IMG/VR virus record: IMGVR_UViG_3300042296_000700
Coordinates: 32,001 to 96,000 of that record
Length of the DNA: 64,000 bases
Reading direction: 5' to 3' (one strand)
From: a virus
Shown: in pieces, positions 38,275 through 61,982 of the stretch
Position numbering within the stretch: position 1 is the stretch's first letter
Layout of the letters: the number at the start of each line of letters is the position of its first letter
Made by a program: the position numbers and the translations under genes
The notes under the pieces: generated by a model
What the model was told of the DNA's origin: nothing
The model's input: the letters and a program-made list of their open reading frames with translations, nothing else
Database searches by the model: none

Positions 38275-38580
38275 ATGGCTAATACAGCAAAAGTTCTTTT
38301 TAGAGGGGCTGCGACAACTAATACAAACACTACTTTGTATACGGTTCCTGCCTCAACGTCTACGGTTATAACGAATATTGTTGTTACTAATACGACATCA
38401 AGCCCAGCAACATTCACTTTTTCCCTAAACGGCGTAGTCATTGCACCCACTGTCGCAATTAGTGGCTTCTCAATGACGTCACTGGATATCAAACAAGTTA
38501 TAGCAACCACGCAAACACTTACTGGTGGAGCATCAGCAGCAACAGTCAACTTTCACGTTAGCGGAATGGAAATCGCGTAA
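38275..38580 (+). CDS. Small virion protein (paralog of 41593..41952)
   Basis: TLYTVPASTSTVITNIVVTNTTSS. Confidence 0.7.
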   Translation: MANTAKVLFRGAATTNTNTTLYTVPASTSTVITNIVVTNTTSSPATFTFSLNGVVIAPTVAISGFSMTSLDIKQVIATTQTLTGGASAATVNFHVSGMEIA

Positions 38581-41336
38581 TGGGTATTCAACAGTTCCCT
38601 ATTGGTGATACAACGATTGAAGCAAACGAACTTCTTTACGACCCAGTAAACAAGTTGCGTGTTTCAATGCCGCAGTCACTTATTGACACCGACTTTGAGT
38701 ACGGTACACAGATTTCTAAGTGGGAAAACCTTACAATGACGGACAACCGTCCGTTTGTTTACAACGCACAAACACAATTGGGCGGCATTACAGCAATATC
38801 TTTACCCAACCTTTCGCGCACAGTAACGGTAAGCACCTCATCTACACCAGCAGTCGGAACGCCAATTTCTGTTACAGATACTCATTTGTCTATTGCTAAC
38901 GGAAACTTTATTGTTGAATCAATTTCTTCTGGAGTGTCATTCACATATACTGCGCGTGCAGAAAACACGACAACAGTAACTTCTATCTATGACACAAACA
39001 AAACACAGATTTTTCAAGGCGCATTTTACACTGGCGCAGCAATCGGTGCTGCTCCTACTGTCACCTATTCTGGAACAAAAGTAACTGTAACAACAACAGT
39101 TCCTCACGGTCTTTCTATCGGCAACGAAATAGCACTCACTGGCATCACGACCTCTGGAGCCAACCCACCAAACGGAGCACACTTTGTCGCAGGTGTTTCC
39201 AGTGCGACAGTATTCTTTTATTATGTCCCAACTGCACCGACTGGAACATTGACCGCAACTTCTGCACTCTGTTATGCTCGCCCACAAGGGCAGTTTTTGC
39301 ATCGTCCGTTTGATGGTGGAGTAATTTTTTCCAGCAACTCAACATCAAATCATCAGACAGCAATCCGTCAAACACGACGTTACTTCCGATACCAGTCTGG
39401 TAAAGGTATTCAGATGAGTTCAGGAACACTCATCAAACCATCGCTACAACTAGAATCATTGACCTCATCAGGCACTTTGGTTACTGTTCAAACAAAAGAG
39501 AAGCACAACCTTCAACCTGGTTCAACTATTGAAGTATTCGGCGCAAACGAGACTGCCTACAACGGCAACTTTACGGTCTACACCGTTACTGGTTATAACA
39601 CATTTACATATACGGCATTAAGTGTCCCATCATCAGCAACAGCATCAGGTCTTTACTACGCAAACATTAGCGAATGGTACGGTTGCGCAAACCGCATTGG
39701 TTTGTTTGATAATCAGAACGGGATGTTCTTTGAACATGATGGTCAAGAACTAACAGCAGTTCTCAGAAATTCCACGTATCAGATATCAGGGCGCGTAAGT
39801 GTCACGAACGGTTCTCCAAGCGTCACCCAAACAAACGCATCATTCCCAACACGCTTTGCTAAGCAACTAGACATCGGCGACCACATAGTCATCCGAGGAC
39901 AGTCATACCGCATCATTGACATTGCGAGCGATACATCGTTAACAATTAGTCCTGCATATCGTGGAATAACATCCACAATGGTTATTGCTTCAAAAACGGT
40001 TGATACACACTATAAGCAATCAGAGTGGAACATTGACAAAATGGACGGCACGGGTCCTTCTGGATACAACGCCAACTTTACAAAAATGCAAATGTTCTAC
40101 ATTGACTATTCATGGTATGGCGCTGGTGCAGTTCGCTTTGGCATGCGTGGAACTGATGGTGAAATTAAATATTGTCACAAGTTAGTCAACAACAACGTTA
40201 ACTCAGAAGCGTACATGCGTTCAGGAAACCTTCCAGCACGCTACGAGTCAATAACTCAACCTCCATATACAAAACTTTCAGCAACGCTATCAAACGTGGG
40301 AACTACCGCGTCTGTTGTTTCAACATATGGTTTCCCTGCAGCAGGAACACTACTTGTATCAAACAACCTTTCTGGCTACGAATTTGTGAACTACACAGGA
40401 AAAACTTCAACGTCTTTCACTGGTCTCACTCGGGCACAAACAGGCGTAGCATCACTTGCTACGACCGTAGCGTCTGGTTCAAACGTTCTTACTGTTTCTT
40501 CTACGGCTGGTATTCAGGTTGGGCAGCGTGTGTTTGGAATAGGTAGTCCTGATGTTCCAGAAAACACATTTGTTTCATCAATTACCTCTGGAACTGTGCT
40601 TGCTTTAAGTCAGGCAGTAACAGCAACTAACCCAACACTATTATTCGCACCGATGAATGATGGCACAGCAAAAACTTTCACATATTCTGCGACCAACCCG
40701 ATTGGTGTTGAACTTGCTTGGCCGACATATGCGCCAACTATCTCTCACTGGGGTACTTCGGCAATCATGGATGGTCGTTACGACGACGATAAATCTTTGT
40801 TGTTCACGTACGGTCAGGTAACAAGTACGGCTGTTGCTTCTGGTGCAACGAACTGTTTACTTGCGATTCGTGTAGCACCTTCGGTTGATAATGGTACTTC
40901 TGGTGCTTTTGGTAGTCGCGAACTTGTCAACCGTATGCAGTTGATTTTGCGTGCGCTTGATATCACAACAACTACAGCAAACTCAAACCTGCTTATTACG
41001 GCTGTTCTTAACGGCACACCAAGCGCAGCCGCTACATGGATTTCACCTGCGACAGTCACTTCAAGTCTTGCTCAAGTCGCAGACTACAGCGGTACAGTCA
41101 GGACTATCTCTGGTGGCGAAACAACAGGTGGTTTCTTCGTAGGTACAGGCGCCAACTCTATTGACCTTACGACAGTACGAGACCTCGGTAACTCTATTCT
41201 TGGTGGCGGAACAACGACCACTAATACTGGCATCTACCCTGACGGTCCAGACACGCTACATATTATGGTACGTAACCTTGGTTCCTTATCAGCAAACGTG
41301 TTCTCACGTCTTTCATGGACGGAAGCGCAGGCATAA
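38580..41336 (+). CDS. Large virion structural protein (918 aa)
   Basis: KLRVS.PQSLIDTDFEYG, RQTRRYFRYQSGKG, QMFYIDYSWYGAG.VRFG, LSWTE; HGL/HNL beta repeats. Confidence 0.78.
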   Translation: MGIQQFPIGDTTIEANELLYDPVNKLRVSMPQSLIDTDFEYGTQISKWENLTMTDNRPFVYNAQTQLGGITAISLPNLSRTVTVSTSSTPAVGTPISVTDTHLSIANGNFIVESISSGVSFTYTARAENTTTVTSIYDTNKTQIFQGAFYTGAAIGAAPTVTYSGTKVTVTTTVPHGLSIGNEIALTGITTSGANPPNGAHFVAGVSSATVFFYYVPTAPTGTLTATSALCYARPQGQFLHRPFDGGVIFSSNSTSNHQTAIRQTRRYFRYQSGKGIQMSSGTLIKPSLQLESLTSSGTLVTVQTKEKHNLQPGSTIEVFGANETAYNGNFTVYTVTGYNTFTYTALSVPSSATASGLYYANISEWYGCANRIGLFDNQNGMFFEHDGQELTAVLRNSTYQISGRVSVTNGSPSVTQTNASFPTRFAKQLDIGDHIVIRGQSYRIIDIASDTSLTISPAYRGITSTMVIASKTVDTHYKQSEWNIDKMDGTGPSGYNANFTKMQMFYIDYSWYGAGAVRFGMRGTDGEIKYCHKLVNNNVNSEAYMRSGNLPARYESITQPPYTKLSATLSNVGTTASVVSTYGFPAAGTLLVSNNLSGYEFVNYTGKTSTSFTGLTRAQTGVASLATTVASGSNVLTVSSTAGIQVGQRVFGIGSPDVPENTFVSSITSGTVLALSQAVTATNPTLLFAPMNDGTAKTFTYSATNPIGVELAWPTYAPTISHWGTSAIMDGRYDDDKSLLFTYGQVTSTAVASGATNCLLAIRVAPSVDNGTSGAFGSRELVNRMQLILRALDITTTTANSNLLITAVLNGTPSAAATWISPATVTSSLAQVADYSGTVRTISGGETTGGFFVGTGANSIDLTTVRDLGNSILGGGTTTTNTGIYPDGPDTLHIMVRNLGSLSANVFSRLSWTEAQA

Positions 41337-41338
41337 CA

Positions 41339-41593
41339 ATGGCTATTGACTTCCCTAACTCCCCAGCAACCAACGATACCTTCTCTGATTCTGGTAAAAC
41401 TTGGAAGTACAACGGATATGCATGGTTGTTGCAAACCATTCCTACTGCTCTCGCGAATGGTTCTATTTCTTTAGCGCAGATTGCACAAGGTGGGGCAACT
41501 GCAGGGCAGGCTCTAGTGTGGAGTGGTTCTGTTTGGGCTCCGAATGATGCGTTGCGCGACAATCTTATCAAGTTCTACATGGAGGTCATCTGA
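41339..41593 (+). CDS. Small virion protein
   Basis: MAIDFPNSP...GKTWKYNG.AW; GATAGQALVWSGSVWAP. Confidence 0.7.
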   Translation: MAIDFPNSPATNDTFSDSGKTWKYNGYAWLLQTIPTALANGSISLAQIAQGGATAGQALVWSGSVWAPNDALRDNLIKFYMEVI

Positions 41594-41952
41594 TGGCTGT
41601 AACACAAAAACGTCTTGCTGGTCCTGCCCAGTTGACTGCAACAACCGCTGTCTATTACACGACACCAATCAGCACTACCACGATTGTCAAACAAATTATT
41701 CTAACGAACACTACTTCGTCAGCAAAAACTGTGACTGTTCGTTTGAAACCCCTTGGTGTGGCTGAGGCTGCCACACACGACATTATTAGCGGTATGACTA
41801 TCAACGCTAACGAAACTATGGCTTTCAACTGTTCGCTAGTTCTCAACAACAATGGTTCTACAGCAAACGCAACTAACAGCGACCAGTTGACAGCATTGTG
41901 TAGTTCGGCAACGTCAGTCAATATTACGATTGTAGGTATTCAAGAGGCATAA
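41593..41952 (+). CDS. Small virion protein (paralog of 38275..38580)
   Basis: YYTTPISTTTIVKQIILTNTTSS. Confidence 0.72.
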   Translation: MAVTQKRLAGPAQLTATTAVYYTTPISTTTIVKQIILTNTTSSAKTVTVRLKPLGVAEAATHDIISGMTINANETMAFNCSLVLNNNGSTANATNSDQLTALCSSATSVNITIVGIQEA

Positions 41953-42659
41953 TGGCTGGCATGGTTCGCTACCCGGCGTTGAACGCCATGGCGTCATTTA
42001 TTGATGCCCCTGACTCCGTCTATGGCACTGGCAATGACGGTTCTGTAACCATGGACGGAAGTACTATCGTTATCGGTATTACGCCCTCTTCAAATGTTTA
42101 TACGATGGCTCGCGACACATATTTCTATAATCTGACCATTAGTTCGGGTGTGCGTTTAAACCCAAATGGTTATCGTGTTTTTGTAAAGAATCAGTTAATA
42201 CTCGGTAGCAGCGCAATGATTGGTTATACGACAGGTTTTGCTTCTGCTGGTTCTATCCAACAGGGTGGGGCAGCAAGCACTCCAGTTACTCATAGTCTTG
42301 GAGGTGCGTCGCAAACACAAACTGCCACATTGCCAATCGCTTCGCTTGGCGGCTCGCAATACTTTCAACAGCCGTTGCAGGCAATAGATGGTTTTTCTGT
42401 TACCGCATCTGGCGGACCAACATTTTTACGCGGTGGCGCTGGAGGAGTAGGTCAGGCTGGTGGAGGGGTAGTAATTCTTGCTGCCCGCTACATCTCTGGA
42501 CCGACATCTGGGAGCGCAACAATTTCTGCTAAAGCAACATCTCCTGCTGGTGGTGGAGTGATTCTTCTTGTTTCATCTGGCGCAACATTGCCTACGACTG
42601 TAACAACAGACGTGACTGGTTATGCCTCTGGGATATTCTACTATATGCAGTTGGTATAA
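41952..42659 (+). CDS. Gly-rich virion protein (paralogous to the middle/C-terminal part of the next gene)
   Basis: DSVYGTGNDG.VT...RDTYFYNL.I...NGYRVFVKN; GGAGG..GGGVV. Confidence 0.72.
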   Translation: MAGMVRYPALNAMASFIDAPDSVYGTGNDGSVTMDGSTIVIGITPSSNVYTMARDTYFYNLTISSGVRLNPNGYRVFVKNQLILGSSAMIGYTTGFASAGSIQQGGAASTPVTHSLGGASQTQTATLPIASLGGSQYFQQPLQAIDGFSVTASGGPTFLRGGAGGVGQAGGGVVILAARYISGPTSGSATISAKATSPAGGGVILLVSSGATLPTTVTTDVTGYASGIFYYMQLV

Positions 42660-42660
42660 A

Positions 42661-45600
42661 ATGGCTGCGCTTGAAAGAACAGGAACAAATAGGGAACTGT
42701 ACAGGATTGGAGATATCGGTCCTGGTGGTGGGACGATTTTCCTTACCCCAAGTTCAACAGATAACACTACTGGTAAATATTTTGAAGTCGCTCCTCCCAC
42801 GTGGACGGGGTCACTTGGGAATACGTTAACGCGAACGAACCTATGTAAAACAAGTTCTTTTGATGGTGGTGTTGGTTTATGGACTGCCAATAGTGGGGCA
42901 GTAATCACAACTGATACAAACGAGCATCTTGTCAGTGGAAGTTCACTAAAAATTACGTCTTCAACAAGTAATTACAACAACGCCATACATGCCCTGATAC
43001 CCATTACTGCTGGTCAGAAATATGTTTATAGTGCGTACGTAAAAAATGTTGGCGGAAATACGCGACCTGTTTACCTCGCTGTTATTTGGTTTGCATCAAA
43101 CGGTTCAACTGTTGTAGGAAGCGAAATGAACTCTGTTTCTCAGGGAGACCTTGCTATTGCAGACGGCTGGCGGCGCAGATGGGTTGCTGGAACAGCACCA
43201 ATTGGCTCTGCATTCGCTCGTCTGCATATTTTAAGTGGCACCACGGGTCTGACAACAGCCGACATCACGCGTGCTGACGGTGTTTTGTTTGAACAAAGTT
43301 CTTTTTCTTTTTTATATCCGTTTTTTGATGGTGTGAAATCATATTTAGATTCGTCAATGGCATATACGGCTTTACCAAACCCTGGTACCGCAGATATTAG
43401 AACTCTTACTAATGAGGGTTACAGTATTATTCCAGAAACACGAGCGTGGTCTGGCAGTGCATATAACTCGTCATCAACGAGCACATGGATTGGTGGGACA
43501 GCAACACCAAAACTTAGAACAAGCAACGTTTCTTTAACTGGATACACTTTATATCCTGATATTGGATTAGGGGCGTCACAGACAGATATCATATTTAATT
43601 TTGGTTCACAAGAAAATACTGCAGCATATGTTGCAAAACAATATTCTGGCGGTGGTTATACAGACTGGTTTCTTCCATCAACATATGAACTCAAGGCACT
43701 CGGTGAGGCGCAATTTGCCACTTATAGCGTCGGGGTAGTTTCTACCTCTACGACTACATATGCCACTTCTTCTACTTCTTCTTCTATATTGATGAGAAGT
43801 TGGGTTGGTAGCACAAGTAGTAATGTGGGTATTTATGAGCCAGTCAATGTGCGTCCAGTACGAATGTTTTCTGCAACACCGTCAACGCATGTGCAACGTG
43901 CAGGTAACGACTCGGTGTATGGGAACGGATATGACGGCGATGTCACCATTCTTGGTTCAGGACAAATAACTTATCTTTCCAGAGATATGTATTACAACAA
44001 TTTGGTTATACCATCGCAAACAATGCTTCACACTAATGGTTACAGAGTTTTTGTTCGTAACAAACTAACTGTTAATGGATACATTGGCGTCAGCAGTGGT
44101 TCAAACACGATATTTGGTTTACTTTATGGAGAACCAAGCGCAGTTACGTCAAGGACAGTCTCTGGAACGACATCCACGAATGCTATTACATATCGTATTG
44201 GCGGCAAGGGTGGGGGCGCTACCGCTGATGGTACGAGTCTTCTCCCTACAGGAATTCTGTATTCTTTAGATGTTGCTACTAAAGGTTTGTTCATTGACCC
44301 TAATAACAGTCAGTTGACACCTTTGACTGGTGGTGCTCTTGGTACGCAAGGAAGTCAAGGAACAACATATCCAGCGTTAACTGATTCTGATACTTGGTCT
44401 GGTAAAACTGCTCCTACGTCTTGGCCTAGCCAGTCTGGTAATGCGGGTAATGCGGGTAATGCGGGTGGTGCTGGTGGAACTGTTGTTGCTGGTGCGTTAG
44501 GTGGTGCTGGTGGATATCCACCAAATGCCCATACTGGCACTGGTACCACTCCTGGTGGAAGAGGCAGTACAGGTAACTCTGGTAATCCGGGTACGGCTGG
44601 AAATCCTGGTGCGACAGGCAACTCAGGAAATCCTGGTACGGCAGGCAACCCTGGTACGGCAACTGGAGCAAATCCGAGTGTAGGTGGTGCTGGAGGTTCG
44701 GCTGGGCAAGGTGGCGCTGTCGTTGTTATTGCAGCCAAAACTATTACTGGTACTGGAAGAATTGTTTCGCTAGGTATTTCTGGCGCATTAGGTTCTGCTG
44801 GAACTACTGGTACTGGTGGTACGGCTGGTACGGCTGGTACGGCTGGAAACGCAGGTACTACTGGCGCAGCGGGCAATGCTGGTAGTGCTGGCACGGCTGG
44901 AAATACTGGAGACGCGGCACCAGGTATTAACACAAGTCCATATCATGCTCATCACCGTCTCGGTTCTGGACATATGAATACTCAGTACGCAAATGGCGGA
45001 GGGCATGATAGCGAACCTGGCGCGCATATTCCGCATGCTCATCTTTCGCAGGATTATCATGACCAGCATCGCGGCTCGCGACTTCATTTTCATATGCCTC
45101 ACGGCGGCAATACGGTAAACCATAACCCTCCTGTAGTTACGAGTAACAAGCCATTGACACATGGACCAGGTACGGTCTTTCATAATCCTTCACACATTCA
45201 CCATGCAGGTCACACGCACAACCCGCATCATGATGCTCCTCACGGACATAACCATCACACACATAGAAACGATGGGGCGACTTTACACAGTCCTCATACT
45301 TTCGGACCACACCACGGTGCTGCAAACGGGCAGGGCAATGACGGAACTCATGCCTACTACTACTGGGGCGGACATCACGGAACACAACATGCAGGCGGAC
45401 CTCACACCCATGGGTCGGCAGGCAAACATATCGGGTCACCCCACACTGGTACTCATTATGCAGGAGGTGCTGGTGGCGCAGGCGGACCCGCTGGCATTGC
45501 TGGAACGGCAGGAACAGGTGGTACGGGGGGCACAGGGGGTCTCGCTGGACCAGGAGGCACTGCGGCACCCGCACAACCTCAGGGCGGCACAGGTAAGCGT

Positions 45601-45750
45601 GGGGGTGCAGGCGGTGGAGGAGGTATCATTGTGATAACCGATAGCACCTCATTGGGAAGCGTAACTACCGACGTTACTGCTGGTGCAACTCAAGACTCAG
45701 ATTTCAACACAGCCTCTTCAGGGTTTGTATACTTAATTCAGAACACATAG
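42661..45750 (+). CDS. Modular fibre/adhesin: CBM-like domain, DUF1566-like segment, G-x-x repeats flanking a His-rich domain
   Basis: YRIGDIGPGGG.IF; jelly-roll-like ITAGQKYVYSAYVK; GGYTDWFLPS.YEL...VRPVRMF; (GNA/GTA/GNP)n; 41 His counted in 44944-45456. Confidence 0.8.
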   Translation: MAALERTGTNRELYRIGDIGPGGGTIFLTPSSTDNTTGKYFEVAPPTWTGSLGNTLTRTNLCKTSSFDGGVGLWTANSGAVITTDTNEHLVSGSSLKITSSTSNYNNAIHALIPITAGQKYVYSAYVKNVGGNTRPVYLAVIWFASNGSTVVGSEMNSVSQGDLAIADGWRRRWVAGTAPIGSAFARLHILSGTTGLTTADITRADGVLFEQSSFSFLYPFFDGVKSYLDSSMAYTALPNPGTADIRTLTNEGYSIIPETRAWSGSAYNSSSTSTWIGGTATPKLRTSNVSLTGYTLYPDIGLGASQTDIIFNFGSQENTAAYVAKQYSGGGYTDWFLPSTYELKALGEAQFATYSVGVVSTSTTTYATSSTSSSILMRSWVGSTSSNVGIYEPVNVRPVRMFSATPSTHVQRAGNDSVYGNGYDGDVTILGSGQITYLSRDMYYNNLVIPSQTMLHTNGYRVFVRNKLTVNGYIGVSSGSNTIFGLLYGEPSAVTSRTVSGTTSTNAITYRIGGKGGGATADGTSLLPTGILYSLDVATKGLFIDPNNSQLTPLTGGALGTQGSQGTTYPALTDSDTWSGKTAPTSWPSQSGNAGNAGNAGGAGGTVVAGALGGAGGYPPNAHTGTGTTPGGRGSTGNSGNPGTAGNPGATGNSGNPGTAGNPGTATGANPSVGGAGGSAGQGGAVVVIAAKTITGTGRIVSLGISGALGSAGTTGTGGTAGTAGTAGNAGTTGAAGNAGSAGTAGNTGDAAPGINTSPYHAHHRLGSGHMNTQYANGGGHDSEPGAHIPHAHLSQDYHDQHRGSRLHFHMPHGGNTVNHNPPVVTSNKPLTHGPGTVFHNPSHIHHAGHTHNPHHDAPHGHNHHTHRNDGATLHSPHTFGPHHGAANGQGNDGTHAYYYWGGHHGTQHAGGPHTHGSAGKHIGSPHTGTHYAGGAGGAGGPAGIAGTAGTGGTGGTGGLAGPGGTAAPAQPQGGTGKRGGAGGGGGIIVITDSTSLGSVTTDVTAGATQDSDFNTASSGFVYLIQNT

Positions 45751-45758
45751 GAGAAAAA

Positions 45759-46001
45759 ATGCCTTTATTTGACGAAATTGACACTAAGCAGCGTCTACAG
45801 ATTTTGCGTGGAACTTACAAATCTTTAGAAATTGAACTTTTTGAAGTTTTAACACGTCTGGGAATTGATGTTGATGACTACACTTATGGTGAGCATCCAG
45901 AATTTGCTGATTCAGAAGATAACTGGAATAAACGTCGCGTTATTGAACTAGAAGCAACTTTGGCTACAATTAAGGCAAAGATTGACTCGCTGGCGGCATA
46001 A
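45759..46001 (+). CDS. Hypothetical protein (80 aa)
   Basis: AGGAG RBS; helical. Confidence 0.75.
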   Translation: MPLFDEIDTKQRLQILRGTYKSLEIELFEVLTRLGIDVDDYTYGEHPEFADSEDNWNKRRVIELEATLATIKAKIDSLAA

Positions 46002-46004
46002 GTA

Positions 46005-46424
46005 ATGCAAAGAGTCTTCTATGTGCCTGCATCAACACCAATTACTGCTGAACTAAGCGAGCAAGCGGAATTGCTTGCTCTATCTGTGCTGCATGGTGAA
46101 AGTGCTTTATCGCGTTATGTTGACTTTGACCGCGACATTGCGCAGCCTATTTCTTTGCCATCCGAAAAAATATGCCTTTTCGCTAACGAAGTCCCAATAA
46201 TGCTTCATCAAAGCATTGAGGTAACTAATGATTTTGTTGATATGCGTGACGGCGTAACCCTTGTTTTGAATGGTAAAAAAATTATTGAGCCGTTGATACT
46301 TGAAAAACACTACGCTCGTTATGCCATTGAGTGCACTGGATACGGTGTTCAAGTGTTTGACATATTTGATAAATCTATGCGAATTTTAGAACACGGGGAG
46401 TATTATGTCGTTAACCCTGAGTAA
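46005..46424 (+). CDS. Hypothetical protein (139 aa)
   Basis: Tightly packed in the operon. Confidence 0.7.
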   Translation: MQRVFYVPASTPITAELSEQAELLALSVLHGESALSRYVDFDRDIAQPISLPSEKICLFANEVPIMLHQSIEVTNDFVDMRDGVTLVLNGKKIIEPLILEKHYARYAIECTGYGVQVFDIFDKSMRILEHGEYYVVNPE

Positions 46425-46992
46425 ACCAGCGCCATGTATTTTTGTTTACGAAAATGCTTTGACCGATGGCGAAAAGTTTATTTCAATGCTTGAAGAGCAA
46501 ACCAATGACGAATGGTCACCACTGTCTTGGGATTATTCAAAAACTGGTTCAGGACAAATCAGTGAGTACCGCTCATCGCGCATATGTTCACTGTTGGACA
46601 TTACACGCCCCTGTCCAAGTACGCCAATCTCAGATTTGTTAAATAAATCTATTCTCAAAGATATAGATACGTGCCTTAGTGATTACAGCACATATCACGG
46701 GATTACTGCGTTTATCGGCAATGAAGGTTGGATTGTTCTCAAATATGAGGGTCAAGCGCAATATCGCACCCACTGGGACCACGCACCAGATAACGCCAGA
46801 ACAGTTTCTATTGTGGCATTCCCTTACTCAACAACCAAGGTTGGCGGAGAACTAACATTCCCGCATTTCGGGATAACAATTAAACCCAAAACTGGTTCAG
46901 TAGTTATATTTCCATCTAATTTCCCCTACACGCATACGGCGCATCCAGTTGAAGATGGTGTCAAGTATTCACTTGTTACGTGGTTGAGGTAG
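46405..46992 (+). CDS. 2OG-Fe(II) oxygenase (prolyl-4-hydroxylase-like)
   Basis: LKY...HWD...RTVS...GGEL.F...G.VVIFPSNFPYTH..HPV..GVKYS. Confidence 0.92.
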   Translation: MSLTLSKPAPCIFVYENALTDGEKFISMLEEQTNDEWSPLSWDYSKTGSGQISEYRSSRICSLLDITRPCPSTPISDLLNKSILKDIDTCLSDYSTYHGITAFIGNEGWIVLKYEGQAQYRTHWDHAPDNARTVSIVAFPYSTTKVGGELTFPHFGITIKPKTGSVVIFPSNFPYTHTAHPVEDGVKYSLVTWLR

Positions 46993-46994
46993 AG

Positions 46995-47255
46995 ATGGAA
47001 TACGAAAACATTCCAAATGAAAGATTTGCATGGCTCGGCATTGCACCGCCACCAGATGGTGTTGTTGTTCCAGAAGATAATCCCGTCCCAATTGTTAAGG
47101 ACATATTGCCACCTAATCAAGTGACTGGCGCAGACGAAGGTCTTGGTATATTCAGGTGGCTTATGGCAGACGAAGATGAGCGACAAGACACATTGTCAGG
47201 GTGTAGATTGCTTGACAACTTCGTTTATATGCAAATACCAAAGGAAGACGATTGA
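46995..47255 (+). CDS. Hypothetical protein
   Basis: GAGG RBS; ATG 46995. Confidence 0.65.
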   Translation: MEYENIPNERFAWLGIAPPPDGVVVPEDNPVPIVKDILPPNQVTGADEGLGIFRWLMADEDERQDTLSGCRLLDNFVYMQIPKEDD

Positions 47256-47485
47256 TGGCTATAACATTTGACTACTCTGATAGTAACAATCATATTCAGG
47301 CTTTAACGGCACAGGTTAAAACTTTGATTGATGTTGACTACGATTTTGTTGACGCTAACAACGTTGAGGCTTTTAGGGTTGCTGCAAAAGCAGTGAATGA
47401 ACCAGTGCGCAGTAAATTGCTTCACATGCTCAACTTTATTGTTTTTAATAGTCAAGTAAATAGCGTGTATGGAGATAAACAATGA
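47255..47485 (+). CDS. Hypothetical protein
   Basis: TGATG coupling upstream, ATGA coupling downstream. Confidence 0.65.
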   Translation: MAITFDYSDSNNHIQALTAQVKTLIDVDYDFVDANNVEAFRVAAKAVNEPVRSKLLHMLNFIVFNSQVNSVYGDKQ

Positions 47486-48225
47486 GTGAGATTAATATTG
47501 TCACAGTCGGGAATGCGACTCATCGCATAAGTTCATTTTCGTGTCCTCCACAGTTGCCCTCTATTATTGAGTTCAAGGATTTTAGTCGTGCTATCTATTC
47601 TCGGTTGACAGAATCAGATAAATTTGATTTACGTACTTCTTCACGTTCTGAAGAGTTTCTTGCTTATGGTTTGGTAGGAGCCCCTGGTGGCGAGGACATT
47701 GCCCCAGTTGTTTGGAGTTCACATGGGCAAGCAGAAATGTATGGACGGCTATGTGGGGCAAAGGACGTTTTTATACATAGCGTTCCGTACGCTATTTATT
47801 TTGCTGCCCATAACTACGAAAATGTTTATGTTCTAAATTGTGCTTCAACACTTATTGCGGGTTCGCATGATACTGCGAGTGATGCAGATATCACAAATGT
47901 AACAACACTTTCATGGGACGATGCTTACAACAATATGCCCGAACTTGATATGGCTGTTGTGATGTATTCACATATCTGTGCCGACGATTCCTTATTTGAT
48001 GCAATCATGAACGCTATGAAGCCAAACGGAGTAGTTATCATCCACAACTCAAGCAATGGTGGTGCCCTGTATGAGGTACTTGGAGACAAGAAGCCTCTAG
48101 ATATGGCTGCACAGGTTTCTCTTTCCGCTCTGCTACACAAAAAGATTCTTGACAGAGGCGATTTTTTGACGCAACATTTTCAGGGCTGGGTTTCTCACAC
48201 TGTCTGCGTTAAACTGCCATCATGA
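47482..48225 (+). CDS. Class I SAM-methyltransferase-like protein, possibly degenerate
   Basis: C-terminal LDMAVV...AMKPNGVVIIHN resembles the MTase L.PGG motif region; no clear GxGxG motif I. Confidence 0.5.
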   Translation: MSEINIVTVGNATHRISSFSCPPQLPSIIEFKDFSRAIYSRLTESDKFDLRTSSRSEEFLAYGLVGAPGGEDIAPVVWSSHGQAEMYGRLCGAKDVFIHSVPYAIYFAAHNYENVYVLNCASTLIAGSHDTASDADITNVTTLSWDDAYNNMPELDMAVVMYSHICADDSLFDAIMNAMKPNGVVIIHNSSNGGALYEVLGDKKPLDMAAQVSLSALLHKKILDRGDFLTQHFQGWVSHTVCVKLPS

Positions 48226-49712
48226 CTAACGAACACGAACCTATAAGTTTTGGGATTGTTGGCTCTGGTACGGCAGGGCTAATTTCTGCAATCATGCTCA
48301 GGCAGGCATTTCCGTTATCTAAAGTAACGATTATTTCCTCAAGTACAATCGGCATCATTGGGGTCGGAGAAGGAAGCACTGAACATTGGCGCGAATTTAT
48401 GAATTTGTGCGATATTCCGCTTGAACAGATGTTAGTGAAAACAGCCGCTACACATAAATACGGTATTCGTTTTGAAGGTTGGTCAGGTTCGTTCCCTGAT
48501 TATTTTCATAGTGTTTCTGGCGATGAACAACTTTACGGGTGGGGTCATTACCCGACATATGCGGGCATTCTTGAGAATGGCGACTCATTAACGAGCCAGA
48601 CGAGCAGTATTGGTTTAATTCAAAACAAAATTAAACGCGAGAATTTACATTCCAATACTAACCAATACCATTTTGACACTTTCAAACTTAATAACTATTT
48701 TACCGAACTATGCTTTAAGCGTTCCATCAAAATGATTGATGGTCAAGTTACCGATGTTAAGCGCCACAGTGAAACAGGAAACATCTCTAGCGTACTTCTT
48801 GATAACGGAAGTTCTGTAGAAGCAGACCTTTGGATTGACGCAAGTGGATTCTCCCGTGTATTAATGAACAAACTAGATGCTTCTAATTGGAATTCATTCT
48901 CTGACTACCTCCTCGTTGATTCTGCAATAGCCGCCCCATCCGAATCATCATCAGACGGAATACGTCCATACACGAGAGCAATAGCCAAAGATGCTGGATG
49001 GATATGGGAAATCCCAACACAAGAACGGCGTGGAAATGGATACGTTTACTCATCGCAGTTTGTTTCTGACGATGAGGCTATTGCAACTTTAGAGAAACAA
49101 ATCGGACCGCTATCTATTGCTCCACGAACATTCAAATTTGATGCAGGTCATGTTAAGGAAGTTTGGGTCAAGAATTGTATGGCTATCGGTTTGGCTGCTG
49201 CTTTTGTTGAACCGCTAGAAGCAACATCAATTGGTAGTGCAATTCAGCAAATAAAATATGCAATACCGTATTTTGCGTCATTTGAGCAAAAACATACGGC
49301 ATCGCAAAAGCATTACAACAAACTGTTCACAACAATGATGGATAACATTTTGACGATGATTCGCCTTCATTACATATCGGATAGGCGTGATACTCCATTC
49401 TGGACTGCTTCTTCTGAAATGAAAATTAATGACTCGCTTCAAGAACTTCTTGACCTTTGGCAAGAGAGAGTTCCATGTCGTAATGACGTAGGAACAATCA
49501 ATGGGGAGATGTTCCATGCACCTCACTTATTCCACGTTGCACAAGGACAAGGTGTTTTAAATAGTCGCGCAGCAACCTTGATGATTGACAATTTTAATCT
49601 TCGCAAACAAGTGGAGTTAGATATTTCAAATCGTCGCCATGCCCGTTTTAATCATGAGTTGGTTGACCATCGTGAATCGCTTGATATGCAATTTGAGGAC
49701 AAACTACTGTGA
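48222..49712 (+). CDS. Flavin-dependent (tryptophan-halogenase family) halogenase
   Basis: GSGTAG FAD motif, GVGEGS, ATHKYGIRF (catalytic Lys), IDASGF, GWIWEIP, GNGYVYSS, FVEPLEATSI. Confidence 0.93.
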   Translation: MTNEHEPISFGIVGSGTAGLISAIMLRQAFPLSKVTIISSSTIGIIGVGEGSTEHWREFMNLCDIPLEQMLVKTAATHKYGIRFEGWSGSFPDYFHSVSGDEQLYGWGHYPTYAGILENGDSLTSQTSSIGLIQNKIKRENLHSNTNQYHFDTFKLNNYFTELCFKRSIKMIDGQVTDVKRHSETGNISSVLLDNGSSVEADLWIDASGFSRVLMNKLDASNWNSFSDYLLVDSAIAAPSESSSDGIRPYTRAIAKDAGWIWEIPTQERRGNGYVYSSQFVSDDEAIATLEKQIGPLSIAPRTFKFDAGHVKEVWVKNCMAIGLAAAFVEPLEATSIGSAIQQIKYAIPYFASFEQKHTASQKHYNKLFTTMMDNILTMIRLHYISDRRDTPFWTASSEMKINDSLQELLDLWQERVPCRNDVGTINGEMFHAPHLFHVAQGQGVLNSRAATLMIDNFNLRKQVELDISNRRHARFNHELVDHRESLDMQFEDKLL

Positions 49713-50515
49713 GCCTGCGGAAAATTGATAAGTATAGCGATATTAAAGTTCCTGAGGGAAAGATTGTTATTGTCCCTTGGGATAACCGTCTCCTTGAACT
49801 GCCTCCTTATTCTAACGATAGGGCTCCAGTTCCTCAGTGGATTAAAGATTCTCCTAGCACGCAAGGTTCAATTAGGCGCTGTGCAGCAACAATGGATTTT
49901 GTTTCTTCTGGCATAACAATCCCTGCTTGGACAAACTTTCGTTTTAACAAAACCGAAGGTGAAGATTCATGGGATTTTACTTGCGACCAGTTTGATGGCT
50001 TTGGGGCACATGAACATTTTGTGAATCAACCGTTTGCTTTTGAGCAAACAGGCTCATGTCCTATGACTAAAGTGCGGGCGATGGAAAATGTGGGGTACCC
50101 AAAGTTGGTTAACCCTTTTAGAATCATTACTGCACCAGGTTGGTCAACAATGATTTTGCCAGTTCTTTATGAGCCATCACGACATTTTTCTGTATTACCA
50201 GGCATTGTAAACACCGACTATTATCATGAATCAAACTGTGTGCTTAATTTGCTTGGCAAAGAGTCATTCACTATCCCGTGGGGCGCACCCTTGATGCATC
50301 TAATTCCAATTAAAAGAAGCACGATGGCGCACAGTATTGAATTCCTTGATGAAAGTGCATTCAAGTATGTTGTTGGGCGCGGATTTGGTTCTGGTGCTTT
50401 AAAACCCACTGGGGATGGATGGTCTTCTGCTCGTCTTTATCGCGGTTATAGGTTTAGGCGCGATGCAGAACTCGCTGAAGATAGCCAGAAAAAAAAGTGG
50501 TGGAAAACTAAATGA
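49709..50515 (+). CDS. DUF6065-like protein (dUTPase-like beta fold, oxygenase-cluster associated)
   Basis: PQW.K...IRRC...DF..G..IP.W, K..NPF.I.T.PGWS, GIV.TD.Y, G.PL..LIPIKR. Confidence 0.6.
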   Translation: MSLRKIDKYSDIKVPEGKIVIVPWDNRLLELPPYSNDRAPVPQWIKDSPSTQGSIRRCAATMDFVSSGITIPAWTNFRFNKTEGEDSWDFTCDQFDGFGAHEHFVNQPFAFEQTGSCPMTKVRAMENVGYPKLVNPFRIITAPGWSTMILPVLYEPSRHFSVLPGIVNTDYYHESNCVLNLLGKESFTIPWGAPLMHLIPIKRSTMAHSIEFLDESAFKYVVGRGFGSGALKPTGDGWSSARLYRGYRFRRDAELAEDSQKKKWWKTK

Positions 50516-51207
50516 TTTTCCCTTCTGGCGTTGGTGGCGCTATTGCTTACAAAGATAATGTTTTAAGCGATTCGTTGTGCGCTGACATTATTGAATATGC
50601 GGAAACACACAGCAGCATGATGTACGAAGGTCCAACTATTAGTGGAATTAACAAGCATATAAAGAATTGTTACGATTTTTCTTTGTCGTATTACAGTGAC
50701 CATGCAGAAACTGATGAGCAGCGAAAAGAATTGGCTGCTCTTAATGATTTGGTGTTTGAATCTTTTTCTCCTGCATTGGAAGAATATTGCTCATACTACG
50801 AAGGCTTAAATAACTGGACTAACAGATACGACACTGGATATCAATTTCAAAAATATGCCGCCAATGAAGGGTTCTACAAGCCTCATTGTGATGGCGGAGT
50901 ATATGAGGCTGAGGGTCTTGGAAATCGGGTACTTGGTGTCGTCATGTATCTGAACACCGTAACCAAAGGTGGGGGGACAAACTTTCCGCTGCATGAAGTT
51001 ACTGTTGATTCTGTTTGTGGACGTATTTCGTTTTTCCCTGCTAACTTCACGCATCCTCATGCTGGGTTGATGCCGCTGTCTTCTCCCAAGTACATTATTA
51101 GTACTTTTTGCTATACGGTTCCGAGTGCCCCTAGTGTGGATACTGCGGTTGCGGAACTTGCTTTGAACTATGATGAGCAGTTCAAGCAGACGCCAGATGC
51201 ATTATAA
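50512..51207 (+). CDS. 2OG-Fe(II) oxygenase
   Basis: QKY....FYKPHCD...RVL..VMYLN.V..GG.T.F...FFPANFTHPH.G..P....KYI. Confidence 0.92.
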   Translation: MIFPSGVGGAIAYKDNVLSDSLCADIIEYAETHSSMMYEGPTISGINKHIKNCYDFSLSYYSDHAETDEQRKELAALNDLVFESFSPALEEYCSYYEGLNNWTNRYDTGYQFQKYAANEGFYKPHCDGGVYEAEGLGNRVLGVVMYLNTVTKGGGTNFPLHEVTVDSVCGRISFFPANFTHPHAGLMPLSSPKYIISTFCYTVPSAPSVDTAVAELALNYDEQFKQTPDAL

Positions 51208-61464: not shown

Positions 61465-61982
61465 CACACCCAAACCAAATAAACTTAACCGATATACAGG
61501 GAATACCCCCCACCCCACAGACATGGTACGACCAAGCCAACTGCAAAGGGAAAACCCACCTCATGTTCCCAAAAGAACACAAAGACATCACATACATCAA
61601 ACAAGCACGCAACATCTGCAAACAATGCACAGTCAAAGAACAATGCCTCACCACCGCACTCCAATACCCAGCAATAGACATGCACGGAGTATGGGCAGGA
61701 CTCACCAGCAGACAACTAGCAACAGAACAAAAACGCAGAGGCATCAAAGCCACCCGCCCATCACTAGCCCAAATGTTCCCCGCTACCCACAACGCACCCC
61801 GCACAAATCGCAAAACAAAAGCCCACCAAACTCAACAGGCACAGGAACACAATCCGAACGACCACACGGATTCAACACCCTCTCCCCAGCAAGATACGCA
61901 CGCAACACAGAACCAGCATCAGGAAGAACCCTCCCATCAACAAGACGAGGCAACCCCCGACCCTCACGAACAGCAGACATAA
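61461..61982 (+). CDS. whiB: WhiB-family Fe-S transcription factor
   Basis: ATG 61461; W...ANC...F...ARNICKQC.V..QCL..AL...GVWAGLT. Confidence 0.9.
   Translation: MTHPNQINLTDIQGIPPTPQTWYDQANCKGKTHLMFPKEHKDITYIKQARNICKQCTVKEQCLTTALQYPAIDMHGVWAGLTSRQLATEQKRRGIKATRPSLAQMFPATHNAPRTNRKTKAHQTQQAQEHNPNDHTDSTPSPQQDTHATQNQHQEEPSHQQDEATPDPHEQQT

What the first reader, a model, noticed from the sequence alone, without database searches (positions are those of the whole stretch)
44437..45625. Symmetric Gly-repeat / His-rich loop / Gly-repeat architecture: possible metal-loaded fibre tip
Seen: 41 His in 171 codons (44944-45456, about 24%) with many HxH motifs (HAH, HFH, HIH, HTH, HGH, HNH), bracketed by G-N-A/G-T-A/G-N-P triplets and inserted in a domain whose paralog (41952..42659) lacks it. 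Known: T4 gp37 needles bind iron through HxH, and G-x-x small-residue repeats form polyglycine-II bundles. Inference: an out-and-back stalk presenting a multi-metal tip, possibly exploiting a host metal-uptake receptor or acting as a pH/metal switch.
Basis: partly seen in the sequence, partly recalled or inferred. Interest (0 to 1): 0.78.

Follow-up and report, generated by a model that had tools for sequence, protein, structure and literature searches.

The report
His-rich tip of phage fibre protein
An uncultured freshwater phage that probably infects actinobacteria has a tail-fibre-region protein with a 171-residue stretch that is one-quarter histidine, held between glycine-repeat arms; the feature is real and shared by hundreds of related phages, probably binds metal, is not the known T4-type iron needle, and has not been tested.

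Summary
In detail: 41 His in 171 residues (nt 44944-45456) and 9 HxH. The flanking G-x-x repeats are there. The upstream 235-aa paralog lacks the insert.

- **Topology.** The His segment and its two Gly arms sit between two scaffold strands. These strands are 21-25 aa apart in short paralogs and 129-311 aa apart in long ones, so the insert must run out and back.
- **Family.** All 59 complete long paralogs in related IMG/VR contigs are His-rich (about 22% His). All 67 short paralogs are His-poor.
- **Constraint.** Among 70-85% identical relatives the loop is as conserved as the scaffold. 35 of 41 His are invariant against 63 of 135 other residues. Distant loops keep only the composition, plus a central PH(N/H)D(G/A)PHG motif in a subset.
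- **HxH.** The count is at chance for this His density (9 seen, 9.4 expected). The T4 gp37 iron-needle analogy is therefore not supported.
- **Host.** The genome and five relatives each carry two WhiB genes. An actinobacterial host makes a TonB-type metal receptor unlikely.
- **Fold.** AF2 gives a beta-solenoid core with confidently packed Gly segments. The His loop is unmodelled.

Metal binding is plausible but untested. This scan had already noted Gly/His-rich fibre-tip genes beside halogenase/oxygenase islands in at least 7 other genomes; here the same linkage holds in 65-70 of 80 loci.

The parts
41952..42659 (+). Short His-free paralog (235 aa): the bare scaffold, without the Gly/His insertions
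   Evidence: BLASTP E 2e-12 to aa 430-484 of the long protein. A short paralog lies directly upstream of the long one in 53 related loci, and all 67 short paralogs have at most 4 His per 100 aa.
42661..45750 (+). Long Gly/His-rich protein (1029 aa from the probable start ATG 42661; the ORF is open from ATG 42622, 1042 aa). Residue numbers in this report count from 42622.
   Evidence: It lies at the end of the tail-fibre module of a myovirus (sheath, tape measure and fibre-like ORFs).
42838..43083 (+). CBM_4_9 carbohydrate-binding domain (aa 73-154)
   Evidence: Pfam PF02018, E 5e-6, 27.3 bits against a cut-off of 25.9
43621..43863 (+). Lcl_C / DUF1566-like domain (aa 334-414). The match is weak.
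   Evidence: Pfam PF07603, E 0.004, below the cut-off. The same family is precomputed on homologues P0009, P0014 and P0034.
43879..44421 (+). N-terminal part of the beta-solenoid scaffold (aa 420-600), including the NDxVYGxGxDG...NGYRVFV module
   Evidence: AF2 pLDDT 84-95. VIA-align gives Z 5-7 to beta-helix adhesins and bactofilin. 334 clusters at 50% identity match this part.
44422..44691 (+). First Gly-rich insertion (aa 601-690): G-N-A, G-G-A and collagen-like G-N-P/G-N-S/G-T-A triplets
   Evidence: AF2 pLDDT is about 33 in this protein, but 96-98 for the shorter equivalent in homologue L027.
44692..44769 (+). Scaffold strand pair (VVVIAAKTITGTGRIVSLG), the entry anchor of the insertion
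   Evidence: AF2 strands at domain residues 281-290 and 294-297, pLDDT about 90. Used as the anchor.
44770..44931 (+). Outward Gly arm (aa 717-770): 14-16 uninterrupted G-x-x triplets of small residues (T, A, N, S, G), with no Pro or charged residue until the end
   Evidence: Pfam Collagen, 25.4 bits, below the 27.2 cut-off.
44932..45459 (+). His-rich segment (aa 771-946; His from 775 to 945): 41 His, 28 Gly, 14 Pro, 12 Asn, no Cys, non-repetitive
   Evidence: Identity to relatives is 70-81%, with 35 of 41 His invariant. pN is 0.13-0.22 with saturated pS. AF2 pLDDT is about 32.
45211..45264 (+). Central conserved motif HTHNPHHDAPHGHNHHTH (aa 864-881), matching the family pattern PH(N/H)D(G/A)PHG
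   Evidence: Present in 29 of 127 loops, at relative position 0.47 +/- 0.08 along the loop. Component patterns occur in 11-13 of the 62 loop clusters.
45460..45597 (+). Return Gly arm (aa 947-992): 11 uninterrupted G-x-x triplets, then the conserved AAPAxxxGGTGKRGGAGGGGG
45598..45750 (+). C-terminal scaffold strands (IIVITD ... FVYLIQNT) and stop codon, the exit anchor of the insertion
   Evidence: AF2 pLDDT about 90. The C-terminal (Y)V(I/L)(I/L)N motif is conserved across the family.

Best explanation
The gene encodes a tail-fibre-module protein of an uncultured myovirus that probably infects freshwater actinobacteria. Its last ~620 residues form a small beta-solenoid scaffold, the same one that the 235-aa upstream paralog has in bare form. 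Glycine-rich segments have been inserted into this scaffold.

The last two scaffold strands are 21-25 residues apart in the bare paralogs. Here they are separated by about 285 residues: an outward arm of 14-16 G-x-x triplets, a 171-176-residue non-repetitive segment with 24% His, and a return arm of 11 triplets. The excursion starts and ends at neighbouring strands, so it must go out and come back. The arms are made of small residues only. They most likely pair as polyglycine-II/PPII-type helices, as in gp38-type phage adhesins or the snow-flea antifreeze protein, rather than as a parallel collagen trimer (inferred). The His segment is then displayed at the far end, topologically like the variable loops between the glycine-rich motifs of gp38 adhesins.

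The His segment is a constrained functional element. It is most likely a multi-site transition-metal (Zn, Ni, Cu or Fe) binding head that only folds with metal, and it serves adhesion to the host envelope or stabilises the fibre tip (inferred).

Shown: the topology, the family-wide presence, the purifying selection and the preferential conservation of His. Inferred: PGII pairing of the arms, metal binding, location in the virion and the adhesion role.
For: - **His excess.** p is about 1e-30 or lower.
- **Insertion mapping.** The anchor strands are 21-25 aa apart in 56 short paralogs and 129-311 aa apart (median 267) in 91 long ones.
- **Arm lengths.** They co-vary: Spearman 0.61 over 127 sequences and 0.62 over 62 cluster representatives. 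Relative to the short-loop homologue L027, both arms of this protein are about 27 residues longer.
- **Family-wide presence.** 59 of 59 complete long paralogs have at least 15 His per 100 aa, and 67 short paralogs have at most 4. About 50 of 73 protein-database homologues are His-rich, as are 33 of 50 representatives of 450-799 aa.
- **Loop composition over 127 loops.** H 22%, G 12%, P 8%, N 8%, with K and E 1% each.
- **Constraint.** The loop is 70-81% identical in relatives whose scaffold is 71-93% identical. 35 of 41 His are invariant against 63 of 135 non-His (odds ratio 6.7, p 1e-5). pN is 0.13-0.22 with pS saturated.
- **Central motif.** PH(N/H)D(G/A)PHG sits mid-loop in 29 of 127 loops.
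- **Cysteine.** Some subfamilies add vicinal Cys pairs among the His.
- **Structure prediction.** AF2 of homologue L027 gives mean pLDDT 82. Its Gly-rich segments score 96-98 and are assigned neither helix nor strand. Its His loop scores about 40. The S16 and PP01 gp38 adhesins appear among the structural matches (Z 5.2 and 4.2).
- **Adhesin-type context.** CBM_4_9 and DUF1566-like domains at the N-terminus, position at the end of the fibre gene block, and an upstream 92-aa ORF with a tail-collar-type N-terminus.
Against: - No metal measurement exists, and composition alone does not show binding.
- AF2 leaves the His loop, and in this protein the long arms too, at pLDDT about 32. That is equally what a disordered region gives.
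- HxH is not enriched. His spacings of 3 and 4 are depleted family-wide, so no known metal-site periodicity is seen.
- His positions do not align between distant members: z > 5 for only 5 of 126 loops, and a loop HMM finds only the closest relatives.
- A second arm measure, anchor to first or last His, correlates only weakly (Spearman 0.32, Pearson 0.19).
- The sequences compared are related, so the correlations are inflated.
- The gp38 structural match is weak (rmsd 7.6 A) and lies within the range of generic matches.
- No proteomic evidence shows that the protein is in the virion.
Confidence: 0.45

Rival explanations
1. The His/Gly-rich excursion is mainly the protein substrate of the enzymes encoded just downstream. 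These are a prolyl-4-hydroxylase-like 2OG-Fe(II) oxygenase, a VirX1-like flavin-dependent halogenase, a conserved 268-aa partner and a second oxygenase. Pro, Asn, His, Tyr or Trp residues would be hydroxylated, halogenated or cross-linked to harden or diversify the fibre tip. This reading is compatible with metal binding rather than exclusive of it.
For: - The cassette follows the short/long pair in related loci whose proteins are only 35-60% identical: oxygenase in 65 of 80, halogenase in 70 of 80 and the 268-aa gene in 66 of 80. The loci without them are mostly cut by contig ends.
- Genes are tightly packed: stop at 45750, next ATG at 45759.
- The oxygenase's best solved relatives are Bacillus anthracis prolyl 4-hydroxylases (E 2e-5), and the protein has G-N-P triplets.
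- The halogenase matches VirX1 (6qgm, E 2e-47). VirX1's natural substrate is unknown and its active site is large and open (PMC8407142).
- Iyer et al. 2010 (PMC2938197) proposed collagen-like and tail-collar proteins as dioxygenase substrates in bacteria.
- Earlier notes of this scan report the same neighbourhood in at least 7 other phage genomes (unchecked AI notes).
Against: - All 80 loci come from one viral lineage, so the synteny may be inherited and not functional.
- Cyanophages such as S-PM2 and Syn9 have halogenases without a detectable member of this protein family. hhalign to Syn9 gp38 gives Prob 2%.
- No flavin reductase or direct evidence of protein halogenation was found.
- Iyer et al. 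themselves favoured small-molecule products for the phage clusters.
Confidence: 0.22
2. The His segment is an intrinsically disordered, metal-free, pH-titratable tether. It is near neutral above pH 7 and polycationic below about pH 6.5. It sticks reversibly to anionic wall polymers or simply acts as a flexible spacer. Its composition is selected, not a fold.
For: - AF2 pLDDT is about 32-40 in both models.
- The composition is rich in G, P, N, S and T and poor in aliphatic residues, and almost the only titratable residues are His: D 6, E 1, K 2, R 4 against H 41.
- Distant loops keep the composition but not the sequence, and loop length ranges from 41 to 550 aa.
Against: - Among close relatives the loop is as conserved as the folded scaffold, and individual His are preferentially invariant.
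- A 30-residue central block is conserved across many loop clusters.
- Cys pairs appear among the His in some subfamilies.
- A spacer would not need to return to its starting point.
Confidence: 0.2
3. It is a T4 gp37-type trimeric needle in which HxH motifs from three chains coordinate a row of Fe2+ ions. It may be used as a 'Ferrojan horse' to dock on a host siderophore or metal-uptake receptor.
For: - Nine HxH motifs are present.
- gp37 also has an out-and-back chain path (own knowledge of PDB 2XGF).
- HxH iron sites are widely proposed for marine phage fibres (PMC11705849).
Against: - HxH is at chance for this His density: 9 against 9.4 here, and 507 against 541 over 62 family representatives.
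- phmmer finds no solved-structure match at E <= 10 for the loop, and the family profile finds none either.
- 24% His is several-fold denser than a gp37-type needle would need.
- The phage and five complete relatives carry two WhiB genes each, so the hosts are probably Gram-positive actinobacteria without outer-membrane TonB receptors.
Confidence: 0.06
4. The protein is not a virion part. It is a metal-storage or metal-delivery protein made during infection, for example to supply Fe(II) to the neighbouring oxygenases.
For: His-rich tracts are typical of Ni and Zn chaperones and storage proteins (own knowledge: HypB, SlyD, Hpn). The gene is adjacent to two Fe(II)-dependent oxygenases.
Against: A beta-solenoid scaffold, CBM and DUF1566-like domains, collagen-like repeats and a position inside the fibre gene block all point to an extracellular structural or adhesive protein.
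Confidence: 0.05

Closest known systems
gp38-type adhesins of T-even-like phages (S16 gp38, PDB 6F45; PP01 gp38, PDB 9V85)
   Same: Both lie in the fibre-end region. Both have glycine-rich motifs that pack as non-alpha, non-beta (polyglycine-II) helices, with loops between consecutive Gly motifs displayed at one end. Both chains appear among the structural matches of the L027 model (Z 5.2 and 4.2).
   Different: No sequence relationship was found, and the structural match is weak (rmsd 7.6 A). This family has an N-terminal beta-solenoid module. One loop is expanded to 41-550 residues with about 22% His, whereas gp38 loops are short and not His-rich.
T4 gp37 receptor-binding needle with HxH-coordinated Fe2+ (PDB 2XGF), and the 'Ferrojan horse' proposals built on it (PMC11705849)
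   Same: His in a phage fibre, an out-and-back chain path, and a proposed metal role.
   Different: HxH is not enriched beyond composition. There is no sequence similarity. His density is far higher and non-periodic. The flanks are Gly repeats, not intertwined beta strands. The host probably lacks an outer membrane.
Collagen-plus-histidine structural proteins of animals: mussel byssal preCols, Nereis jaw protein Nvjp-1, histidine-rich glycoprotein GHHPH repeats, prion PHGGGWGQ octarepeat (own knowledge; resemblance only)
   Same: A G-x-x or collagen-like stalk combined with Gly/His-rich metal-binding domains. Local motifs such as HHPH and PHGG(x)HHW recur in the family.
   Different: These proteins are unrelated in sequence and origin, and no evidence of metal cross-linking exists here. 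This is a lead for how it might work, not a membership.
Fibre-linked halogenase/2OG-oxygenase neighbourhoods of cyanophages (Syn9 gp38-gp54, Iyer et al. 2010, PMC2938197; VirX1 of Syn10, PMC8407142)
   Same: A flavin-dependent halogenase and 2OG-Fe(II) oxygenases lie directly behind Gly-rich fibre-end genes.
   Different: The cassette here is small (one halogenase, two oxygenases). The lineage infects actinobacteria and not cyanobacteria. The Gly-rich proteins of Syn9 (gp36, gp38, gp39) belong to a different family with only modest His content.

Membership tests
T4 gp37-type HxH iron-binding fibre needle | HxH motifs as a specific, recurrent signature, more frequent than His density alone would give | tested here: not met
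   9 observed against 9.4 expected in 2000 shuffles (z -0.2). Over 62 family representatives, 507 against 541 (z -1.8).
T4 gp37-type HxH iron-binding fibre needle | Sequence similarity to the gp37 needle or any solved HxH fibre | tested here: not met
   phmmer of aa 744-973 against all PDB sequences found no match at E <= 10. The family profile A2 found only low-complexity matches.
T4 gp37-type HxH iron-binding fibre needle | A trimer with octahedral Fe2+ coordinated by six His | not testable with these tools
   Only monomer AF2 without ligands was available, and the loop comes out at pLDDT about 32.
gp38-type polyglycine-II sandwich adhesin (S16 gp38) | Glycine-rich motifs folded as packed PGII helices | tested here: inconclusive
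   In the L027 model the Gly-rich segments have pLDDT 96-98 and are assigned neither helix nor strand.
gp38-type polyglycine-II sandwich adhesin (S16 gp38) | Structural similarity to 6F45 chain D | tested here: inconclusive
   VIA-align Z 5.2, rmsd 7.6 A, 132 of 248 residues aligned, rank 15. 9V85 gives Z 4.2. Both lie within the range of generic matches.
gp38-type polyglycine-II sandwich adhesin (S16 gp38) | Sequence homology | tested here: not met
   Profile A2 against PDB sequences does not find 6F45. hhalign against Syn9 gp38 gives Prob 2%.
Collagen triple-helix repeat (PF01391) | Uninterrupted G-X-Y triplets | tested here: met
   16 triplets before and 11 after the His segment. 45-nt and 27-nt DNA repeats encode G-N-P and G-T-A units.
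Collagen triple-helix repeat (PF01391) | Score over Pfam's gathering threshold | tested here: not met
   25.4 bits against a cut-off of 27.2, E 1.2e-5.
Collagen triple-helix repeat (PF01391) | A parallel homotrimeric helix | not testable with these tools
   No multimer prediction was available. An out-and-back topology with antiparallel arms fits a parallel collagen trimer poorly (inference).
Beta-helix / beta-solenoid adhesin fold | Stacked beta-rungs superposable on known solenoids | tested here: inconclusive
   Pertactin 2iou_H gives Z 6.2-7.0, and IgA1 protease, FHA, Ag43, EtpA and bactofilin give Z 5.2-6.9, over 70-125 residues. Foldseek finds nothing at E <= 0.001. These Z values are in the 'common arrangement' range.

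The most novel reading that the evidence does not exclude
The Gly-arm/His-loop excursion is the natural protein substrate of the co-inherited VirX1-like halogenase and prolyl-hydroxylase-like oxygenases. The phage would build a chemically tailored fibre tip that is hydroxylated, halogenated and metal-cross-linked. This would be a viral counterpart of the halogenated His/Gly-rich metal-hardened proteins of worm jaws and mussel threads, and it would give viral halogenases their first natural target.
Probability: 0.15. Interest if true: 0.85.

Novelty: new variant of a known kind. Interest (0 to 1): 0.55.

Why it matters
Metal-binding His sites and glycine-rich scaffolds are both known in phage fibres. 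A 40-550-residue domain with about 22% His, displayed on paired Gly arms, has not turned up in the papers, Pfam, PHROGs, NCBIfam, PDB or deposited phage genomes I could search.

The family is common. It occurs in 325 IMG/VR stretches and 334 protein clusters at 50% identity. It sits in a lineage of 130-200 kb WhiB-carrying phages that probably infect abundant freshwater actinobacteria, whose receptor biology is almost unknown.

If the domain binds metal, these virions are an unrecognised pool of organically bound trace metal and a new kind of adhesin. If it is the target of the adjacent halogenase and oxygenases, it makes the open question of what viral halogenases act on directly testable with one co-expression experiment.

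Tried and rejected
- **Deposited phages.** tblastn of the whole protein and of its N-terminal scaffold part against 50,697 phage records gave no match. The short paralog gave one weak hit.
- **Family libraries.** PHROGs and NCBIfam have nothing for the core domain.
- **Fold searches.** Foldseek against PDB gave nothing at E <= 0.001 for either model. BFVD returned only collagen-like low-complexity matches.
- **Solved structures by sequence.** The loop gave no match and the family profile gave only low-complexity matches.
- **ESM Atlas.** Only unnamed viral clusters, at scores below 0.9.
- **Loop homology at distance.** A loop HMM built from the close relatives finds only those relatives. Local alignment z-scores exceed 5 for 5 of 126 loops. 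His positions are therefore not conserved family-wide.
- **HxH enrichment.** Rejected.
- **Second arm-length measure.** Anchor-to-first/last-His distances correlate only weakly. An earlier regex version missed half the sequences and one script timed out.
- **Syn9 gp38/gp39.** hhalign rejects them as relatives.
- **His-rich ORFs near halogenases.** None in the real frames of the S-PM2 and S-RSM4 regions fetched around the 918-aa structural-protein homologue.
- **Prokaryote genomes.** Only the ~60-residue N-terminal module is widespread; the full His-rich form is essentially absent.
- **Cassette partners.** Pfam and PDB searches of the conserved 268-aa, 247-aa, 139-aa and 80-aa neighbours found nothing.


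Full report
**Setting**

The window is part of a 107-kb IMG/VR viral contig, about 73% complete. It carries a terminase, a tail sheath, a tape-measure-like protein and several fibre-like ORFs. It also has a 918-aa virion structural protein that is about 45% identical to proteins of cyanophages S-PM2 and S-RSM4.

The genome has two WhiB genes. So do five large relatives of 128-203 kb, four of them at least 96% complete by CheckV's estimate. In the control genomes WhiB is found only in Corynebacterium glutamicum. This is therefore most likely a lineage of actinobacteria-infecting myoviruses. A published lake MAG, DSL-LC01, has the same WhiB pair plus a halogenase (PMC10611076).

**The observation**

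The ORF 42622-45750 (1042 aa) has 41 His in the 171 residues encoded by 44944-45456, and 6 His in the remaining 871. The binomial p is 4e-30 to 6e-50. The probable start is ATG 42661, one base after the stop of the upstream gene.

The nine HxH motifs and the G-N-A, G-N-P and G-T-A repeats are all present. The His segment has no tandem repeat at DNA level.

Shuffling the loop gives 9.4 HxH on average, against 9 observed. Over 62 family representatives HxH is, if anything, slightly under-represented (z -1.8). His spacings of 3 and 4 are depleted (z about -7). So histidine is enriched, but HxH motifs are not.

**Architecture**

- The N-terminus has a CBM_4_9 domain (over the Pfam cut-off) and a weak Lcl_C/DUF1566 match.
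- Residues 420-1042 share their N-terminal module with the 235-aa upstream ORF (E 2e-12).
- AF2 of residues 420-1042 gives a confident core (pLDDT about 90). The first Gly block and the whole arm/His/arm stretch come out at about 32.
- AF2 of a short-loop homologue, L027 (416 aa), gives mean pLDDT 82. Its Gly-rich segments score 96-98 and are assigned neither helix nor strand. Only its 47-residue His loop stays at about 40.
- VIA-align matches the core to beta-helix adhesins and bactofilin (Z 5-7). More weakly, it matches the polyglycine-II adhesins S16 gp38 (Z 5.2) and PP01 gp38 (Z 4.2). Foldseek finds nothing. These scores show a solenoid-type arrangement and no more.

**The insertion**

I used two conserved strands as anchors: the hydrophobic run ending in K/R before the loop, and the GGG-plus-hydrophobic run after it. 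The distance between them is 21-25 residues in 56 short paralogs. It is 129-311 residues (median 267) in 91 long paralogs. The arm/His/arm unit is therefore a true insertion that leaves and re-enters the scaffold at neighbouring strands.

In this protein the arms are 16 and 11 uninterrupted G-x-x triplets. The longest G-x-x run before the loop correlates with the one after it: Spearman 0.61 over 127 sequences and 0.62 over 62 loop-cluster representatives. A cruder measure, anchor to first or last His, correlates weakly at 0.32. The sequences are related, so I treat the covariation as moderate support only.

It is a separate insertion.

**Family**

- The protein database returned 73 hits. About 50 of them, at 573-1204 aa, carry 16-35 His per 100 residues.
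- A full HMMER search with the scaffold part found 334 clusters at 50% identity. Of the 50 listed representatives of 450-799 aa, 33 are His-rich.
- IMG/VR holds 325 matching stretches.
- In the 80 loci fetched, 59 of 59 complete long paralogs have at least 15 His per 100 aa. All 67 short paralogs have at most 4. In 53 loci the short gene directly precedes the long one.
- Across 127 non-identical loops the median length is 178 aa (range 41-550) and the median His fraction is 22%. Lys and Glu are 1% each.
- No relative exists in 50,697 deposited phage genomes.
- In prokaryote genomes only the first ~60 residues of the scaffold are widespread.

**Constraint on the loop**

Three relatives (L005, L006, P0004) were compared. 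Their loops are 70-81% identical to this one, and their scaffolds 71-93%. Of the 41 His, 35 are invariant in all three, against 63 of 135 other loop residues (odds ratio 6.7, Fisher p 1e-5). Synonymous sites are saturated, while pN in the loop is 0.13-0.22, about the same as in the scaffold at 0.18. The loop is therefore under purifying selection and is not a drifting low-complexity tract.

At greater distance the loops no longer align beyond composition. A block around PH(N/H)D(G/A)PHG does persist in 29 of 127 loops, always near the middle at relative position 0.47 +/- 0.08; its component patterns occur in 11-13 of the 62 loop clusters. Other subfamilies have repeated HSA(V/T)IH(A/E)PH units and vicinal Cys pairs.

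**Reading**

The evidence shows a constrained, His-dominated element displayed on an out-and-back Gly excursion of a fibre-module protein. I infer three further points:
- The arms pair as PPII/polyglycine-II-type helices. They have small residues only, with no Pro or charge in the outward arm. AF2 is confident about the shorter equivalents.
- The head binds several transition-metal ions and folds around them.
- It acts in adhesion or in stabilising the tip.

The T4 gp37 model is not supported. A TonB-type receptor is unlikely for an actinobacterial host. A disordered, pH-titratable tether remains a serious rival.

**Neighbourhood**

Directly downstream lie the following genes:
- a 2OG-Fe(II) oxygenase at 46405, whose best solved relatives are Bacillus anthracis prolyl 4-hydroxylases (E 2e-5);
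- a flavin-dependent halogenase at 48222, related to VirX1 at E 2e-47;
- a 268-aa gene at 49709;
- a second oxygenase at 50512.

In the 80 related loci the first oxygenase, the halogenase and the 268-aa gene follow the pair in 65, 70 and 66 cases. The encoded proteins are as low as 35-60% identical.

VirX1's natural substrate is unknown (PMC8407142). Iyer et al. 2010 described phage dioxygenase/halogenase arrays and proposed collagen-like and tail-collar proteins as dioxygenase substrates in bacteria (PMC2938197).

Earlier notes of this scan report Gly/His-rich fibre-tip genes beside such islands in at least 7 other genomes. I checked Syn9. Its gp36, gp38 and gp39 are Gly-rich with modest His, but they are not detectable relatives of this family. 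If the linkage is real, it would therefore have arisen with different Gly-rich proteins. That would strengthen it, but I have not verified those other genomes.

**Limits**

- No multimer or ligand-aware prediction was available.
- No experimental data exist.

Noticed in passing
window 45759-51207: A conserved cassette follows the short/long paralog pair: a P4H-like 2OG-Fe(II) oxygenase (46405), a VirX1-like flavin halogenase (48222), a 268-aa unknown gene (49709) and a second oxygenase (50512). It is kept in 65-70 of 80 related loci at 35-60% protein identity.
   Followed up: partly
window 42622 vs 42661: The longest ORF starts at ATG 42622, inside the upstream gene. Homologues and the ESM Atlas record start at the ATG at 42661, one base after the upstream stop (TAA 42657-42659). 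The protein is probably 1029 aa, not 1042.
   Followed up: yes
window 61524-61715 (G000:C1:93524-93715) and G000:C1:8514-8702: The phage genome has two WhiB-family genes, as do five large relatives. The lineage probably infects actinobacteria, although its 918-aa structural protein (38580-41336) is about 45% identical to cyanophage S-PM2 and S-RSM4 proteins.
   Followed up: yes
L011, L015, L017, L048, L075 (short-loop homologues); P0015, P0034, P0043: Some subfamilies have 55-80-residue His loops with vicinal Cys pairs (for example HAPCCT, HTCCG) and internal repeats of HSA(V/T)IH(A/E)PH. Mixing Cys with His is a further hint of metal sites.
   Followed up: partly
P0045, P0047, P0056, P0133, P0144, P0153: Giant family members of 1066-1204 aa carry 95-114 His and loops of up to about 550 residues.
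   Followed up: no
P0034, P0043 versus window 43621-43863: The DUF1566/Lcl_C-type domain sits N-terminal to the scaffold in this protein. In P0034 and P0043 it is inserted near the C-terminus, after the GGGGAIIV strand. So the putative binding module has been shuffled around the same scaffold.
   Followed up: no
L087-L120 (prokaryote MAG contigs): The first ~60 residues of the scaffold (NDxVYGxGxDG ... NGYRVFVK) occur alone in contigs binned to many phyla: Patescibacteria, Planctomycetota, Chloroflexota, Bacillus, archaea. It looks like a widespread phage-tail module of unknown role.
   Followed up: no
window 41315-41593 and 41593-41952: Two small ORFs lie upstream of the pair: a 92-aa ORF with a tail-collar-type N-terminus (phrog_17970 and phrog_3449) and a 119-aa ORF (phrog_20100). 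They recur in 27 and 29 of the 80 loci and may belong to the same fibre-end module.
   Followed up: partly
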